Shown here piece after piece: positions 16,821 to 23,000 of a DNA stretch of 41,171 nucleotides. A program made the translations under genes and the position numbers. Location: the IMG/VR virus record IMGVR_UViG_2778261424_000010, positions 1 to 41,171 of that record, one strand, 5' to 3'. The notes below the pieces were generated by a model. The model saw only the letters and a list, made by a program, of their open reading frames with translations, was not told the DNA's origin and made no database searches. The stretch's first letter is position 1. Each line of letters starts with the position of its first letter. The stretch comes from a virus (Duplodnaviria > Heunggongvirae > Uroviricota > Caudoviricetes).

Positions 16821-17088
16821 CCCGACAGCAACTATAAACGCGCTGTTATGTGCTTGTGTTGTTATTACTCTGATGTTTTATCGTCGTGGTGATTCGCGGC
16901 ATCGTCCTTGGGTTTCACGTTTAGCCTGGCTGATTACTGTTACATACAGTGCTGTTCCGTTGGCCTATCTCTGTGGGATTTATCCCCATTCCTCATGGCC
17001 CATTATCGTGGCGAATACTATTTTTCTTTCCGTGCTGGTGGCCGTCAGAGGCAACGTTGCACGCCTGGTTGATCATCTGAGGCACTAA
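16807..17088 (+). CDS. Second holin/antiholin-like membrane protein
   Basis: 93 aa with 3 TM helices and a GTG start after GGGGAGG. It overlaps the previous gene and is coupled to the endolysin (TAATG). Confidence 0.5.
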   Translation: MELNDPTATINALLCACVVITLMFYRRGDSRHRPWVSRLAWLITVTYSAVPLAYLCGIYPHSSWPIIVANTIFLSVLVAVRGNVARLVDHLRH

Positions 17089-17702
17089 TGAACCAACAAT
17101 TATTTCAAAAGGCGGCTGGTATCAGCGCCGGACTGGCTGTGCGCTGGTTTCAACCAGTAGATGCAGCGATGAAAGAATTCGGCATTACAGCACCCGCGGA
17201 TCAGGCCATGTTCATCGCTCAGGTAGGTCATGAGTCAGGCGGCTTTAGCGCTGTAGTTGAAAATTTGAACTACACACCATCTGCGCTGGTGGCGACCTTC
17301 GGAAAGAGGATCACACAGCAGCAGGCTGATGCGCTTGGCAGAACAACCGAACACGCAGCCCGCCAGGATGCTATCGCCAATCTGGTGTATAGCAACCGCC
17401 TGGGTAACAAAGCGCCCGGCGACGGCTGGAAATATCGCGGCAGAGGGTTAATTCAAATCACTGGCCTCGACAATTATCGCACCTGCGGGGCTGCTCTGAA
17501 GTTAGATTTGGTGACTTCACCTGAACAACTGGAACAGGAACTACAGGCTGCGCGCTCAGCTGCATGGTTCTACACCTCTAAAGGCTGCATGATCTACGGT
17601 GCCGATATTAATCGTGTTACTCGCATCATTAACGGCGGTCTGAACGGTATTGAGGATCGTAAGGTCCGATACAACAAGGCGCGGGCGGCGCTGCTGGTAT
17701 GA
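17088..17702 (+). CDS. Endolysin, glycoside hydrolase family 19 (chitinase-like)
   Basis: 204 aa. FIAQVGHESGGF...YRGRGLIQITG...INGGLNG are classic GH19 endolysin motifs. Confidence 0.9.
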   Translation: MNQQLFQKAAGISAGLAVRWFQPVDAAMKEFGITAPADQAMFIAQVGHESGGFSAVVENLNYTPSALVATFGKRITQQQADALGRTTEHAARQDAIANLVYSNRLGNKAPGDGWKYRGRGLIQITGLDNYRTCGAALKLDLVTSPEQLEQELQAARSAAWFYTSKGCMIYGADINRVTRIINGGLNGIEDRKVRYNKARAALLV

Positions 17703-19125: not shown

Positions 19126-19599
19126 ATGGCTGCATTAAAACCTGATGTGAAAGCCTTCATCATTCAGTCGCTTGCGTGCTATGACACGCCGACGCAGGTG
19201 GTTGAGGCTGTCCAAAAAGAATTCGGGATCAAGATCACCCGCCAGCAGGCTGAATCTCACGACCCCACGAAGGCCAGCGGTAAGACGCTCGCCAAAAAGT
19301 GGATCGAGATGTTCCACGCTACGCGCGAACGGTTCCTGACCGAAACCAGCGACATTCCGATCGCGAACAAATCCTATCGCCTCCGCGTGCTTGACCGCAT
19401 GGCAACCAAAACCGAGGGGATGAAAAACTTCTCCCTGACGGCGCAGCTGATTGAACAGGCCGCGAAAGAGGTTGGCGACGCTTACACCAATAAGCTGAAG
19501 GTTGAAAGCACTGGCAAGGATGGCGGCCCGATCAAGACCGAGACGACCAACCTCACCGCAGATCAGGCCGCAGAGATTTACCGCAAGATGATGGGGTGA
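19126..19599 (+). CDS. terS: Terminase small subunit (DUF2280-like)
   Basis: 157 aa. The N-terminus AFIIQSLACYDTPTQVVEAVQKEFG resembles DUF2280 small terminases. Its position upstream of terL fits. Confidence 0.65.
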   Translation: MAALKPDVKAFIIQSLACYDTPTQVVEAVQKEFGIKITRQQAESHDPTKASGKTLAKKWIEMFHATRERFLTETSDIPIANKSYRLRVLDRMATKTEGMKNFSLTAQLIEQAAKEVGDAYTNKLKVESTGKDGGPIKTETTNLTADQAAEIYRKMMG

Positions 19600-19618
19600 T
19601 AGCCGCATGTTGCGGCTA
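19600..19618. other. Hairpin between the convergent terS and HEAT-gene stops
   Basis: TAGCCGCA-TGT-TGCGGCTA, a perfect 8-bp stem with no U-tract on either strand. Confidence 0.4.
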
Positions 19619-19624
19619 TGGATT

Positions 19625-19837
19625 CTAGGCTTGTTTTGGTCGAGTAATACGGCCAAGAGCTTTAATTGCAGCGACTTTGACGTTGTGATTTAGATCCGAA
19701 GATAAATCAAGTAAGCGATTTACATGAGCTGGCGTTGCTGAAGCACTCTCGCCGAGAGCATAAATTGCAGACAATTTTACTTCGTTGTTAAGGTCGTTGG
19801 TTAATTCCAACAACTTAGCGCTAACTGCTGGTGTCAT
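19625..19837 (-). CDS. 70-aa protein made of two HEAT/PBS-lyase-type repeats; antisense moron between terS and terL
   Basis: ATG 19837 preceded by AGGAGG. The repeats are LTNDLNNEVKLSAIYALGE and LSSDLNHNVKVAAIKALGR (D-x-N-x-x-V-[KR]-x-x-A-[AI]-x-A-L-G). GC content is visibly lower than in the flanks. Confidence 0.65.
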   Translation of the reverse strand: MTPAVSAKLLELTNDLNNEVKLSAIYALGESASATPAHVNRLLDLSSDLNHNVKVAAIKALGRITRPKQA

Positions 19838-19908
19838 AAAACCTCCTGTAATTGGTACATAAACAATATCAACTTTGTTACGCAAAAACTCAATGCCTGG
19901 AATTGTTT

Positions 19909-21531
19909 ATGCCTCTTCCGTTTGAATTCGATTTCAGAAACCCTGATTACCAGATGGTTTTTGAATGGCGGATGGAGCGCTTACAGCGCATTCGCCAGAA
20001 CCCTGAAATGCTACCAGCGCTAAAGCAGTTTTATCGCACCAACCCGGCACAGTTCATCATCGACTGGGGTATGACTACTGACCCGCGTAACATCGATTAT
20101 GGCCTGCCGGTCACCATCCCTTTTCTGCTGTTCCCGAAACAGGAAGAGTGGATTCACTGGATCATGGAGCGGCGCGAACGACTGGAGAACGGCATCACCG
20201 AAAAGAGCCGCGAAATGGGGCTCAGTTGGACCGCGATCGGGCTGGCCTGCTCGCTTTGTCTCTTCAACAAAGAAATGGTTATCGGTTTCGGCTCCCGTAA
20301 AGAGGAATACGTCGACAGCACCGGTGACCCGAAGGCGCTGTTCTGGAAGGCGCGAAAGTTCGTGGAAACACTGCCCATCGAGTTTCGTGGTTCGTGGGAC
20401 GAGAAGAAGCATGCGCCGTATATGCGCGTTGAGTTTCCAGATACTGGCGCGGTTATCAAAGGCGAGGCTGGCGACAATATCGGACGTGGTGACCGTACCA
20501 CGCTCTACCTAGTGGATGAAGCTGCATTCCTCCAGCGTCCTCTGTTGATTGATGCGGCGCTGTCGCAAACCACCCGTTGCCGTATTGACCTGAGCTCGGT
20601 TAATGGCATGGCGAACCCGTTCGCGCAGAAGCGCCACGGCGGAAAGATACCAGTATTCACGTTCCACTGGCGAGATGACCCGCGCAAGGATGAAGAGTGG
20701 TATCGCAGGGAGTGCGAGAAAATCGACAATCCGGTGGTGGTGGCGCAGGAACTTGACCTGAACTACAGCGCATCTGCGGAAGGCGTCCTGATCCCGTCCG
20801 ACTGGGTACAGGCTGCCGTCGACGCGCATATCAAACTTGGTATTCAGCCAACGGGCAAGCGACTGGGCGCGATGGACGTCGCCGACGAAGGCCGGGACAA
20901 AAATGCCTTTTCGACCCGTCACGGCTTCCTTCTGGAGAACGTGCGTGAATGGTCCGGCGTTGGCAGCGACATTTACCAGTCTGTTGAGAAGGTCTTCGGC
21001 TTTTGCGAACAGGACAACCTCGAAGAGTTTCGCTTCGACGAGGACGGCCTGGGTGCTGGCGTTCGCGGCGATGCGCGCGCCATCAACGAACTGCGTTACG
21101 CAGCGCGCCGACCGTCAATACTCGCCACACCGTTTCGTGGTAGCGGCGCGGTATTTGATCCGGACGATGAAGCGGTGCGCGGGGACAACGGACAGGCCGC
21201 ACGCCTGAACAAGGACTTCTTCGCCAACGCCAAGGCCCAGAGCTGGTGGTGGCTACGCAAGCTTTTCCAGAACACCTATCGCGCCGTGGTTGAGGGCATG
21301 GCCTACAACCCGGACGAAATCATCTCAATCAGCAGCGCCATGGCGAGCAAAGACAAACTCATCATTGAGCTGTCGCAGCCGACCTACTCCATTAATGGCG
21401 TGGGGAAAATCGTTGTTGATAAACAGCCTGATGGCACCAAGTCGCCGAACCTCGCCGACTCGGTGATGATCAGCTACGCGCCAATGAATTCAGCCCTGAA
21501 CATCTGGGAGCTGCTAGGGAGACAGGCCTGA
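19909..21531 (+). CDS. terL: Terminase large subunit
   Basis: 540 aa from ATG 19909. It has the Walker-B-like LYLVDEAAF and a C-terminal nuclease region. The portal gene follows. Confidence 0.9.
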
Positions 21532-23000
21532 TGGCACGAAACAAGCAATCCTCTCAGCGAACGGCACAGGCCACCGCTGACGGCTACGAGAACTTCGTCG
21601 CCCGCGTTGGGATGCAGACGCCTAACCAGCATTCAGCATCGACCTACCGGGCGAACTTCACCAGCCGCAACCGCATGCTGGTGGAATGGTCATATCGCGG
21701 TTCGTGGGTTATCGGTGAAGCGGTCGACGCTATCCCGGACGATATGACCCGAAAGGGCATTCGCATCACTTCGGAGATTGACGCCAAAGACCGTGGCACC
21801 CTCGAAGCGCAACTGGATGAGTTGCAGATCTGGGATGCGCTGAACGACGTGCTGAAATGGTCGCGCCTCTACGGCGGCGCGGTCGGCTTCATCATGATCG
21901 AGGGGCAAGCACCAATGACCCCGCTGCGACTCGAAACCATTGGCGAGGGCAAGTTTAAGGGCATTCTCCCGCTCGACCGCTGGATGATTAACCCGGTGCT
22001 GACACGCCGCATTAAAGAGATGGGGCCGGACCTCGGCAAGCCTGAGTTTTACGACGTGGTGACCACCGCAACGGGCATTCCGGCCTGGCGCATCCATCAC
22101 AGCCGCCTGATCCGCTTTGATGGCGTCACGCTGCCATTCCAGCAGAAGATGACCGAAAACGAATGGGGAATGTCGGTTGTAGAGCGTATCTGGGATCGGC
22201 TTACTGCGTTCGATAGCGCTACTGTCGGCGCGGCGCAGCTGGTCTATAAAGCGCATCTGCGTACCTATAGCGTGGAGAAGTTGCGCGAGCTTATCGCGCT
22301 TGGAGGCCCGGCGTTCGAAGCGTTGCTGAAGAACATCGACCTGATCCGCCAGTTCCAGAGCAATGAAGGTATGACGCTCATGGACTCGCGGGATAAGTTC
22401 GAAACCCACCAGTACAGCTTTAGTGGTCTGGATGACATTCTTTCGCAGTTTGCTGAGCAGATCAGCGGTGCCGTTGGTATCCCGCTGGTACGCCTGTTCG
22501 GTCAATCCCCGAAAGGCTTCTCTACTGGTGATGCAGACCTCGCCAACTATTACGACCGGGTGAGCTCATTGCAGGAGCGCCGCTTACGGCTGCCGATGCG
22601 CCGGATACTGGACATTATGCACCGCTCGGAACTCGGAAAGCCGCTGCCGGACGATTTCACGTTTGAGTTTAACCCGCTATGGCAAATGTCAGACGTTGAC
22701 CGATCAACGGTGGCCGTAAACACCACCAACGCGATCAGTACCGCGCTGGGCGACGGATTGATGACGCGTAAGGCGGCGATGACCGACCTGCGCGAAAACT
22801 CTGACGTCACCGGCATCGGGGCATCCATTACCGACGAGGATATCGAGAATGCCGAAGACGAAGCGCCGCCAGGCATCGGCGAACTTGGCGACAAACCGCC
22901 AGAGCCGCCAGGCGGAGATCCGATATCGAACGAGCCTACGGCAGATAGCGCGGGCGGTCGGGGATATCGTAAATGGTCGCTACGATGGTTCAAACGATAG
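21531..23000 (+). CDS. Portal protein (DUF1073-like)
   Basis: 489 aa directly after terL (TGATG coupling), with an acidic C-terminal tail. Confidence 0.85.
   Translation: MARNKQSSQRTAQATADGYENFVARVGMQTPNQHSASTYRANFTSRNRMLVEWSYRGSWVIGEAVDAIPDDMTRKGIRITSEIDAKDRGTLEAQLDELQIWDALNDVLKWSRLYGGAVGFIMIEGQAPMTPLRLETIGEGKFKGILPLDRWMINPVLTRRIKEMGPDLGKPEFYDVVTTATGIPAWRIHHSRLIRFDGVTLPFQQKMTENEWGMSVVERIWDRLTAFDSATVGAAQLVYKAHLRTYSVEKLRELIALGGPAFEALLKNIDLIRQFQSNEGMTLMDSRDKFETHQYSFSGLDDILSQFAEQISGAVGIPLVRLFGQSPKGFSTGDADLANYYDRVSSLQERRLRLPMRRILDIMHRSELGKPLPDDFTFEFNPLWQMSDVDRSTVAVNTTNAISTALGDGLMTRKAAMTDLRENSDVTGIGASITDEDIENAEDEAPPGIGELGDKPPEPPGGDPISNEPTADSAGGRGYRKWSLRWFKR

What the first reader, a model, noticed from the sequence alone, without database searches (positions are those of the whole stretch)
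19600..19908. A 70-aa two-HEAT-repeat gene inserted antisense between the small and large terminase genes
terS and terL are normally adjacent or overlapping. Here they are split by about 310 bp of lower-GC DNA carrying a minus-strand gene with a consensus SD (AGGAGG, 5-nt spacer). Its product is essentially two PBS-lyase/HEAT-type repeats (LTNDLNNEVKLSAIYALGE and LSSDLNHNVKVAAIKALGR). It converges on terS across a perfect 8-bp hairpin (19600-19618). Because it is antisense to the late operon, it should be made in the lysogen rather than during lytic growth. A free-standing mini-HEAT protein is a pure protein-binding module. Given the location, it could bind and block an incoming phage's or satellite's packaging or other machinery. 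It could equally modulate this phage's own terS/terL expression through transcriptional collision. I know of no described function for such a gene.
Basis: partly seen in the sequence, partly recalled or inferred. Interest (0 to 1): 0.6.

Follow-up and report, generated by a model that had tools for sequence, protein, structure and literature searches.

The report
Antisense mini-HEAT moron between terminase genes
A small self-contained gene cassette encoding a 70-residue, two-HEAT-repeat protein sits backwards between a prophage's two DNA-packaging genes. It belongs to an unstudied family carried by enterobacterial prophages and IncI conjugative plasmids, so it is most likely an accessory gene expressed by the resident element, not part of the packaging machinery.

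Summary
A 309-bp low-GC insert (19600-19908) replaces the 2-nt terS-terL junction found in near-identical phages. It carries a minus-strand 70-codon ORF (19628-19837) with an AGGAGG Shine-Dalgarno sequence, a conserved sigma-70-like promoter and a 9-bp hairpin. The product scores above Pfam HEAT thresholds. AlphaFold2 models it as four helices, two repeats (pLDDT 92). It is under purifying selection (dN/dS about 0.05).

Three findings change the interpretation:
- The terS-terL junction of this TerL family is an insertion hotspot. Other lineages carry DUF2158, DUF6953 or YafQ/RelB genes there, all antisense.
- The family has at least 131 clusters, 66-72 aa, all named members Enterobacterales. 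It also sits antisense between the lysis genes and terS of unrelated terminase types. It also occurs on 1,215 plasmids, almost all conjugative; in those examined (IncI type) it lies next to excA.
- Phages lacking the insert have 100% identical TerL.

So the position reflects a permissive moron site, not a packaging role. The architecture matches the published prophage defence genes Tab, Tai and TerI. There is no homology to Tab or Tai, and no cognate anti-defence gene.

Best reading: a resident-expressed, protein-binding accessory gene, possibly anti-phage. This makes it a new member of a known kind, of moderate interest.

The parts
19600..19908 (-). 309-bp inserted accessory cassette (moron); replaces the 2-nt terS-terL junction of insert-free relatives
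   Evidence: Alignment with Citrobacter phage Omnitron. GC 0.37-0.45 against 0.55-0.60 in the flanks. The same insert is 96-100% identical in 5 E. coli genomes, behind two different terS genes.
19628..19837 (-). 70-codon CDS for the two-repeat mini-HEAT protein (stop codon 19625-19627)
   Evidence: Pfam HEAT_2 and HEAT above their cutoffs. AF2 model pLDDT 92 with helices 3-12, 18-29, 36-45 and 51-65. dN/dS 0.04-0.05. Family alignment.
19842..19847 (-). Shine-Dalgarno AGGAGG, 4 nt before the ATG
   Evidence: Read from the sequence. AGGAG(G) is kept in most diverged homologues.
19865..19893 (-). Predicted sigma-70 promoter: -35 TTGAGT (19893-19888), 17-nt spacer, -10 GATATT (19870-19865)
   Evidence: TTGAnn-17-(C/G)ATATT lies 26-30 nt upstream of the ATG in window, L004, L006, L008, L180, L181, L184, L185 and L200, while the spacer sequence is not conserved. 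It matches only 8 of 12 consensus positions, so the strict scan did not list it. No expression data.
19599..19619 (.). 9-bp GC-rich hairpin between the convergent terS and HEAT stop codons; likely 3'-end or stability element, no U-tract
   Evidence: dG -13.3, z=-4.95. A hairpin is kept at this place with compensatory changes in L006 (AAGCCGCC/GGCGGCTT) and L008. L095, L185 and L189 have T-runs after it.
19858..19911 (.). 10-nt perfect inverted repeat (19858-19867 / 19902-19911). It brackets the promoter, and its right arm includes the terL start codon.
   Evidence: One arm carries a substitution in the 97% identical copies. Significance unknown.
19126..19599 (+). Flanking gene: DUF2280 protein in the terS position (late operon)
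   Evidence: Pfam DUF2280, E=9e-50. Its C-terminal 32-39 aa (69 in L180) match other terS types at 35-77% identity, and these genes end in the conserved ATGATGGG-stop (MMG*).
19909..21531 (+). Flanking gene: terL (large terminase), followed by portal 21531-23000
   Evidence: PHROG 2 terminase large subunit, E=2.4e-31. RefSeq name 'TerL protein'. Portal Pfam Phage_portal_3.

Best explanation
The insert is an autonomous accessory cassette, a phage 'moron'. It consists of promoter, SD, 70-codon ORF and hairpin. It is dropped backwards into the Q-dependent late operon exactly between the terS stop and the terL start, at a junction that is a recurrent insertion hotspot.

Its product is a free-standing two-repeat HEAT (alphaRep-like) mini-solenoid. 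It belongs to a family of 66-72-aa proteins carried by Enterobacterales prophages, always antisense, at the terS-terL or lysis-terS junction. The family is also carried by IncI-type conjugative plasmids, convergent with excA.

Proposed mechanism:
1. The gene is transcribed from its own sigma-70 promoter while the element is resident (lysogen or plasmid-bearing cell). (Inferred.)
2. It is opposed by convergent late transcription after induction. (Inferred.)
3. The protein acts stoichiometrically. It binds a partner through the conserved helix-B face (Y26, E30, K59, R63, R66). (Inferred.)
4. The most likely role is protecting the carrier cell or element against an incoming phage or competing element, in the manner of Tab, Tai and TerI. 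The target is not specifically the terminase. (Inferred.)

Shown here: the insertion, the coding status, the fold class, the hotspot and the family distribution.

Layered confidence:
- Autonomous accessory cassette unrelated to the phage's own packaging: about 0.85.
- Acts by protein binding: about 0.6.
- Anti-phage or anti-element defence: about 0.35.
For: - Insertion: precise, low-GC, and absent from near-identical phages. In 74 of 78 evaluable viral loci with at least 96% identical TerL, the terS-terL gap is 2-4 nt.
- Hotspot: alternative antisense cargo occupies the same junction: DUF2158, DUF6953, YafQ/RelB.
- Coding status: purifying selection. Conserved SD, promoter-like motif and hairpin.
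- Fold: HEAT Pfam hits above cutoff. AF2 pLDDT 92. alphaRep binders are the best PDB matches.
- Binding face: surface residues Y26 (16/18), E30 (18/18), K59 (16/18), R63 (18/18) and R66 (16/18) are conserved.
- Family: at least 131 clusters, of which nearly all are 66-72 aa and all named sources are Enterobacterales.
- Other sites: antisense upstream of terS of Terminase_6-type phages.
- Plasmids: 1,215 plasmid records, 1,201 of them predicted conjugative. In the plasmid loci examined the gene is next to excA.
- Mobility: the plasmid and prophage cassettes are 71-75% identical at the nucleotide level, including 50-110 nt upstream. HEAT identity does not track TerL identity, e.g. L181 has TerL 96% and HEAT 62%. 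This points to cassette exchange.
- Own terminase: TerL is 100% and TerS 99.4% identical in insert-free phages.
- Precedents for antisense, own-promoter small defence genes in or beside packaging modules: Tab, Tai, TerI.
- Precedent for sense transcription lowering the antisense defence transcript: reported for terI.
Against: - No expression data of any kind.
- The promoter matches only 8 of 12 consensus positions and was not called by the strict scan.
- The hairpin lacks a U-tract.
- No specific hit to any PADLOC defence protein. The only matches are to generic HEAT repeats in a 1,972-position profile.
- Tab, Tai and TerI each come with a cognate anti-defence gene on the sense strand. This insert has no room for one, and no conserved plus-strand ORF exists.
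- No homologue in 50,697 deposited phage genomes, and no literature on the family.
- The partner protein is unknown.
- Presence on plasmids fits a host-directed function equally well.
Confidence: 0.4

Rival explanations
1. Host-directed modulator (lysogenic or plasmid conversion). The mini-HEAT protein binds a conserved Enterobacterales host protein and tunes host physiology to the benefit of any resident mobile element. It would not target invaders. Small plasmid- and phage-borne adaptor proteins such as the Hha family work this way (own knowledge).
For: The same family is a near-backbone gene of IncI-type conjugative plasmids as well as of prophages. It is restricted to Enterobacterales. Its surface residues are conserved across elements with unrelated machinery. 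There is no cognate anti-gene, as expected if the resident element is not itself a target.
Against: No similarity to Hha or any known host-modulator family. The hotspot neighbours include a toxin-antitoxin pair, and the architecture matches known defence genes. No host partner has been identified.
Confidence: 0.25
2. Packaging-directed function. The protein binds TerS, TerL or portal of incoming phages or satellites (TerI-like), or it modulates the carrier's own terminase.
For: Most prophage lineages of the family that I examined place the gene directly beside terS or terL, across at least two unrelated terminase families. TerI shows that a 65-aa antisense prophage protein can block packaging by binding TerS. 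All terS types at this junction share a conserved C-terminal tail, which is a plausible common ligand.
Against: Homologues at 41-42% identity, with the same length and the same signature motifs, sit on 1,215 plasmids that have no packaging genes. The junction carries unrelated cargo in other lineages. The lysis-terS site is the classical moron and defence site (lambda bor, own knowledge; Tai in phi80). Tab sits between terS and terL yet targets the tape-measure protein. The carrier's TerL and TerS are the same as in insert-free phages, and there is no anti-gene, so a block of this terminase type would hit the carrier itself.
Confidence: 0.1
3. Cis-acting role. What matters is convergent transcription or antisense RNA across the terS 3' end and the terL start. 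This would include the 10-nt inverted repeat that can sequester the terL AUG, setting the TerS:TerL ratio or timing. The protein would be incidental.
For: The promoter abuts the terL start codon. Without a U-tract terminator the transcript should run antisense into terS. The inverted repeat 19858-19867 / 19902-19911 includes the terL ATG. The insert removes the tight 2-nt terS-terL junction.
Against: Strong purifying selection acts on the protein, with conserved length and surface residues. The same protein is found at other sites and on plasmids. The inverted repeat is already broken in 97% identical copies. Over 95% of phages with this terL do without the insert.
Confidence: 0.07
4. Neutral passenger or decaying fragment of a larger HEAT protein, with no function.
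For: It is rare among carriers of this terL: 5 of 352 E. coli genomes. A profile search mostly recovers giant multi-repeat HEAT proteins.
Against: dN/dS is about 0.05. The 66-72-aa length, start, SD and promoter are kept over at least 131 clusters. It is maintained on over 1,200 plasmids.
Confidence: 0.04

Closest known systems
Tab (tail assembly blocker) of Pseudomonas aeruginosa phage JBD26 (Patel et al. 2024, PMC10884400)
   Same: A small protein (83 aa) encoded between terS and terL, on the minus strand, with its own promoter. It is a 'moron' expressed from the prophage (JBD26 gp31 located).
   Different: No sequence relationship (hhalign probability 0.3%). The JBD26 terL is unrelated. Tab always comes with a plus-strand anti-Tab gene overlapping terS, which is absent here. 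Tab targets the tape-measure protein; the target here is unknown.
Tai (tail assembly inhibitor) of E. coli and Salmonella prophages, e.g. phi80 orf63 (He et al. 2024, PMC11364771)
   Same: An antisense gene interrupting the Q-dependent late operon just upstream of the packaging module (a 'non-contiguous operon'). This is the second site used by the mini-HEAT family.
   Different: Tai is 204 aa and unrelated (hhalign probability 0.1%). It has a sense-strand anti-Tai partner.
TerI of the Listeria comK prophage phi10403S (bioRxiv 10.1101/2025.02.27.640495)
   Same: A 65-aa protein encoded antisense inside a lytic module and transcribed constitutively. Its locus is a hotspot with alternative cargo. 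Sense transcription lowers its transcript.
   Different: It lies in the early module of a Firmicutes phage, binds TerS, and has two anti-TerI genes.
Classical lambdoid morons (lambda bor and lom; the HK97 moron concept of Juhala and Hendrix)
   Same: An extra gene with its own promoter and terminator-like hairpin and a deviant GC content. It is inserted between two genes that are adjacent in relatives, and is expected to be expressed from the prophage. The cited examples are from own knowledge; the features were tested here.
   Different: A different protein family. Expression was not measured here.
PBS-lyase / alphaRep-type HEAT-like repeats (Pfam HEAT_2, HEAT_PBS; artificial alphaRep binders, PDB 3ltj, 4jw2, 4jw3)
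   Same: The repeat sequence pattern ...D.N..V+.AA..ALG.. and the helix-turn-helix repeat fold. TM-score 0.78-0.83 at 1.3-2.3 Å rmsd.
   Different: Natural members are long solenoids: the top profile hits are 492-3,007 aa with 4-30 matched stretches. This one is only two repeats, has no capping repeats, and stands alone.

Membership tests
HEAT repeat proteins (Pfam PF13646 HEAT_2 / PF02985 HEAT) | Profile score above the curated gathering threshold | tested here: met
   HEAT_2 35.1 bits against 27.7. HEAT 31.0 bits against 23.5. Homologues also pass.
HEAT repeat proteins (Pfam PF13646 HEAT_2 / PF02985 HEAT) | Tandem units of about 30-35 residues, each a pair of antiparallel helices | tested here: met
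   AF2 model pLDDT 92 with helices 3-12/18-29 and 36-45/51-65. alphaRep matches at TM about 0.8.
HEAT repeat proteins (Pfam PF13646 HEAT_2 / PF02985 HEAT) | Extended solenoid of many repeats (typical of the family) | tested here: not met
   Only two repeats. Length is fixed at 66-72 aa across the family, whereas the general profile hits are 492-3,007 aa.
Phage moron | Present between two genes that are directly adjacent in closely related phages | tested here: met
   Omnitron and 74 of 78 viral loci have a 2-4-nt terS-terL junction.
Phage moron | Nucleotide composition different from the flanking phage genes | tested here: met
   GC 0.37-0.45 against 0.55-0.60.
Phage moron | Own promoter and terminator | tested here: inconclusive
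   A conserved TTGAnn-17-(C/G)ATATT motif and a conserved hairpin are present. The strict promoter and terminator scan called neither. There is no U-tract in this copy.
Phage moron | Expressed from the repressed prophage | not testable with these tools
   Needs strand-specific RNA-seq or a reporter fusion.
Tab/anti-Tab system | Small minus-strand gene between terS and terL | tested here: met
Tab/anti-Tab system | Sequence homology to Tab | tested here: not met
   hhalign probability 0.3%. No Pfam family in common.
Tab/anti-Tab system | Cognate anti-defence gene on the sense strand directly after terS | tested here: not met
   The 309-nt insert is filled by the HEAT cassette, and no conserved plus-strand ORF exists in 10 lineages.
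Tab/anti-Tab system | Blocks tail assembly of invading phages through the tape-measure protein | not testable with these tools
   Needs plating assays and electron microscopy.
Tai/anti-Tai system | Sequence homology to Tai (phi80 orf63) | tested here: not met
   hhalign probability 0.1%.
Tai/anti-Tai system | Antisense gene interrupting the Q-dependent late operon near the packaging module | tested here: met
   A Q antiterminator, lysis genes, terS and terL are all on the plus strand in the 100%-matching E. coli prophage, with the HEAT gene on the minus strand. Other family members sit between lysis and terS.
Known anti-phage defence proteins (PADLOC-DB 2.0) | Specific match to a defence-system protein model | tested here: not met
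   Only weak local matches to generic HEAT repeats within a 1,972-position HEAT-ARM profile (E=9e-5 to 1.7e-7), plus weak matches at E=0.0015-0.026 (Csn2, OloA).

The most novel reading that the evidence does not exclude
The mini-HEAT family is a previously unrecognised single-gene defence or exclusion factor shared by enterobacterial prophages and IncI conjugative plasmids. It would be a natural two-repeat 'alphaRep' that binds and neutralises a conserved protein of incoming phages or competing elements. It would work without a cognate anti-defence gene. The carrier would be spared because its own homologue of the target is insensitive, or because convergent late transcription shuts the gene off.
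Probability: 0.2. Interest if true: 0.7.

Novelty: new member of a known kind. Interest (0 to 1): 0.45.

Why it matters
- It adds an uncharacterised cargo family to the antisense accessory-gene hotspots at the packaging-module boundary of temperate phages. That class of site has recently yielded Tab, Tai and TerI.
- The terS-terL junction of a TerL family present in 352 of 5,426 complete E. coli genomes turns out to be such a hotspot.
- The same 66-72-aa protein is conserved on more than 1,200 plasmids, almost all conjugative, which are important vehicles of resistance genes. Its function therefore probably concerns a shared problem of resident mobile elements.
- The protein is tiny and confidently modelled. 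It could be tested with a simple plasmid clone, a phage panel and a pull-down.
- If it binds a defined target, it would be the smallest natural HEAT-type binder known to me.

Tried and rejected
- DNA search of the insert against 50,697 deposited phage genomes found nothing, and so did tblastn of the protein.
- Rfam found nothing at gathering threshold in eight related loci. In the window region the only hit was a chance sub-threshold snoRNA match.
- The strict promoter and terminator scan found no promoter. Its single terminator-like site lies inside the CDS, at the chance rate.
- PHROGs gave only marginal hits to families of unknown function. NCBIfam gave nothing meaningful. PADLOC gave only generic HEAT similarity.
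- The exhaustive profile search returned 15,259 hits dominated by giant multi-repeat HEAT proteins, so it was uninformative about function.
- Foldseek against viral structures found no significant analogue.
- Homology to Tab and to Tai was tested and rejected.
- A plus-strand anti-defence ORF inside the insert was looked for in 10 lineages. Only non-conserved mirror-frame ORFs with weak start codons turned up.
- Target-site duplications at the insert ends: none seen.
- Literature searches for HEAT repeat plus prophage, moron, anti-phage or IncI1, and for the three RefSeq accessions, found nothing on this family.
- R64 (AP005147) is not in the plasmid collection, so no historical gene name could be recovered.
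- A complex prediction (HEAT with TerS, TerL, portal or host proteins) could not be run with the tools available.

Full report
**1. What is in the sequence**

The minus strand of 19600-19908 carries an ORF with ATG at 19837 and a TAG stop at 19625-19627 (70 aa). AGGAGG lies at 19842-19847, four T's before the ATG.

The product scores above the curated Pfam thresholds for HEAT_2 (35.1 against 27.7 bits) and HEAT (31.0 against 23.5 bits).

The flanking plus-strand genes are:
- a DUF2280 protein (19126-19599) in the terS position;
- terL (19909-21531; PHROG 2);
- a portal gene (21531-23000; Phage_portal_3).

A 9-bp GC-rich hairpin (19599-19607 / 19611-19619) lies between the convergent stop codons. 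Its dG is -13.3 kcal/mol, with z=-4.95 against shuffles. It has no U-tract on either strand.

**2. It is an insertion**

Citrobacter phage Omnitron is 98.7% identical in the flanks and reads terS-TGA-TC-ATG-terL. So 309 nt replace 2 nt here. GC falls to 0.37-0.45 in the insert, from 0.55-0.60 in the flanks.

Among 78 evaluable viral contigs with TerL at least 96% identical, 74 have a 2-4-nt junction, three have this 309-nt insert, and one has a 176-nt gap.

In complete E. coli genomes this terL occurs in 352 of 5,426 genomes. The insert occurs in five.

Insert-free phages have TerL 100% identical, TerS 99.4% identical and a portal N-terminus 100% identical to the window. The insert is therefore dispensable, and it comes with no adaptation of the packaging proteins.

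**3. It is a real gene with its own signals**

The same insert is 96-97% identical behind a different terS (190 aa) in other E. coli prophages, while the terS 3' end has diverged. Between these copies dN/dS is 0.04-0.05. For distant pairs that could be computed it is 0.18-0.51, with saturated dS.

Homologues at 60-62% identity in Yersinia and Salmonella prophages occupy the same antisense position, behind a Terminase_2-type or a DUF2280-type terS.

The upstream regions have otherwise diverged. Even so, TTGAnn-17 nt-(C/G)ATATT lies 26-30 nt before the ATG in nine lineages. In the window this is -35 at 19893-19888 and -10 at 19870-19865. Most also keep an AGGAG(G) SD and a post-stop hairpin with compensatory changes.

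This is a phylogenetic footprint of a sigma-70 promoter, not proof. The motif matches only 8 of 12 consensus positions, and the strict scan did not list it.

RefSeq's 86-aa TTG-start version is not supported by the homologues, which all begin at the aligned ATG.

**4. Structure**

AlphaFold2 on a five-sequence alignment gives pLDDT 92 and four helices, that is two helix-turn-helix repeats. The best PDB matches are artificial alphaRep HEAT-like binders, with TM 0.78-0.83 at 1.3-2.3 Å. No viral structure matches significantly.

Across 18 diverse members the invariant or nearly invariant residues fall into two groups:
- the small core residues of helix B: A24, A27, A57, A60;
- surface positions: Y26 (16/18), E30 (18/18), K59 (16/18), R63 (18/18), R66 (16/18).

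From my own knowledge of alphaRep library design, these helix-B positions form the binding face. A conserved ligand is therefore an inference, not a result.

**5. The junction is a hotspot**

Other lineages of the same TerL family carry different cargo at this junction, all on the minus strand and in lower-GC DNA:
- DUF2158 (YodC-like) proteins;
- DUF6953 proteins;
- a YafQ/RelB toxin-antitoxin pair;
- in L160, DUF6953 together with a mini-HEAT gene.

Many further lineages carry a conserved ORF-less element of about 200 nt there. HEAT identity does not follow TerL identity. L181 has TerL 96% but HEAT 62%, and L184 has 91% and 50%. This points to cassette exchange.

**6. The family is much wider than the packaging module**

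A pattern scan of viral contigs found 31 loci.
- Sixteen of them lie between terS and this TerL family.
- In others the gene lies antisense just upstream of terS of unrelated terminases (Terminase_6N/6C). That is between the lysis cassette and terS, the position of phi80 Tai. Two further contexts are different again.

A profile search of 5.8 billion proteins found 131 clusters at E<=1e-8. Nearly all are 66-72 aa, and every named source is Enterobacterales.

The most abundant members are 41-42% identical to the window protein, with the same length and the same AIYALGE / AIKALGR signatures. They are on IncI-type conjugative plasmids (IncI-gamma/K1 in the record examined), convergent with the entry-exclusion gene excA at the end of the traW-traX-traY-excA gene run.

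tblastn finds the gene on 1,215 of 72,556 plasmid records, of which 1,201 are predicted conjugative. The plasmid cassette is 71-75% identical in DNA to the prophage cassettes of the lysis-terS site, including 50-110 nt upstream of the ATG. Promoter and gene therefore move together between kinds of element.

**7. Comparison with what is known**

The architecture has clear precedents.
- Tab of P. aeruginosa phage JBD26 is an 83-aa protein encoded between terS and terL, on the minus strand, with its own promoter. It is expressed from the prophage and blocks tail assembly of invaders. An anti-Tab gene follows terS on the sense strand (locus).
- Tai of E. coli and Salmonella prophages is antisense within the Q-dependent late operon, upstream of the packaging module. 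It also has a sense-strand antidote.
- TerI of a Listeria prophage is a 65-aa antisense protein that binds TerS, with two antidotes. Sense transcription lowers its transcript.

The mini-HEAT protein is not homologous to Tab or Tai, and the JBD26 terL is unrelated. The insert contains no conserved sense-strand ORF that could be an antidote. It matches no PADLOC defence model specifically. I found no paper on this family.

**8. Interpretation**

Shown:
- a self-contained, selected, mobile accessory cassette sits at a recurrent insertion site;
- its product is a minimal two-repeat HEAT protein;
- the family is shared by prophages and conjugative plasmids of Enterobacterales.

Inferred:
- it is expressed from its own promoter in the resident state, and convergent Q-antiterminated late transcription opposes it after induction;
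- it acts by binding a protein through the conserved helix-B face;
- its role is in conflict with incoming phages or elements (about 0.35) or in modulating a host factor (about 0.25).

A packaging-specific target (about 0.1) is weakened by the plasmid homologues, by the heterogeneous hotspot cargo, by the Tab precedent (same position, tail target), and by the unchanged terminase of the carrier. A purely cis-acting role (about 0.07) and a neutral remnant (about 0.04) are disfavoured by the purifying selection and by the family-wide conservation of length and surface residues.

**9. Verdict**

It is a new member of a known kind, the antisense accessory gene in the late operon of temperate phages. 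The family is uncharacterised and surprisingly widespread. Interest is moderate (0.45). It would rise to about 0.7 if a defence or exclusion function without an antidote were demonstrated.

Noticed in passing
L203-L207 and L211 (5001-5210); IncI-type plasmids, e.g. NC_019044.1 46904-47113: Mini-HEAT homologues (68-69 aa, 41-42% identical to the window protein) lie convergent with the entry-exclusion gene excA, in the excA-pnd(hok)-trbA region of IncI-type conjugative plasmids. tblastn finds them on 1,215 of 72,556 plasmid records, 1,201 of them predicted conjugative. All are annotated only as 'HEAT repeat domain-containing protein'.
   Followed up: partly
L096, L100, L103, L113, L118, L133, L134, L160 (terS-terL gaps just upstream of locus position 2501): The same terS-terL junction holds other minus-strand cargo in other lineages: DUF2158 (YodC-like) small proteins, DUF6953 proteins (often paired with DUF2158, and once with a mini-HEAT gene), and a YafQ/RelB toxin-antitoxin pair. 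The junction is an accessory-gene hotspot.
   Followed up: partly
L093, L097-L099, L101, L102, L104-L106, L108-L111, L117, L119, L120, L158 (about 200-230 nt before the terL start): A conserved ORF-less element fills the terS-terL gap in many lineages whose TerL is 68-94% identical to the window's. It has three TATGCA repeats (TATGCA ... TTTATGCA ... TTTATGCA) and a highly conserved ATTATGTTAAA box about 30-50 nt before the terL start codon. There is no Rfam match. It could be a promoter with activator sites, or a terS/pac-related DNA site.
   Followed up: partly
window 19480-19599; terS genes of L004, L006, L177-L184, L200: At least four different terS types (DUF2280 of 157 aa, 190-aa, 318-351-aa Terminase_2-type, and others) share only a conserved C-terminal segment ending ...MMG-stop. 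This segment lies directly before terL. terS is therefore mosaic: a variable N-terminal part joined to a constant tail, presumably the part that contacts TerL.
   Followed up: no
window 19858-19867 and 19902-19911: A perfect 10-nt inverted repeat (CATAAACAAT / ATTGTTTATG) brackets the predicted HEAT promoter. Its right arm contains the terL start codon. On the late mRNA it could pair and occlude the terL AUG. One arm is mutated in the 97% identical E. coli copies, so it may be fortuitous.
   Followed up: partly
window 19625-19885 (minus strand); RefSeq WP_136769304.1 in NZ_CP020048.1: RefSeq annotates the gene as 86 aa from an upstream TTG in AR_0118 and LR-33, but as 70 aa (WP_032214630.1) in other genomes. 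The homologues support the 70-aa ATG start behind the SD.
   Followed up: yes
window about 17088-17702, compared with L003 17464-17985: The 100% match to E. coli AR_0118 was obtained only for a 317-nt query spanning the insert. The lysis region differs: the window has a 204-aa endolysin-like ORF, while AR_0118 has a 173-aa lysozyme. The window prophage is therefore a mosaic relative of the AR_0118 prophage, not the same element. Viral contigs L173 and L175 match its terL and portal at 100%.
   Followed up: no
L189/L190 (516-2398) and L194-L198, L212-L214 (ORF just upstream of the HEAT gene): In some prophages the mini-HEAT gene lies next to a DUF4411 plus Peptidase_M78 (ImmA/IrrE-like) pair. 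In others it is preceded on the same strand by an uncharacterised 145-159-aa ORF, suggesting multi-gene antisense islands at the lysis-terS site.
   Followed up: no
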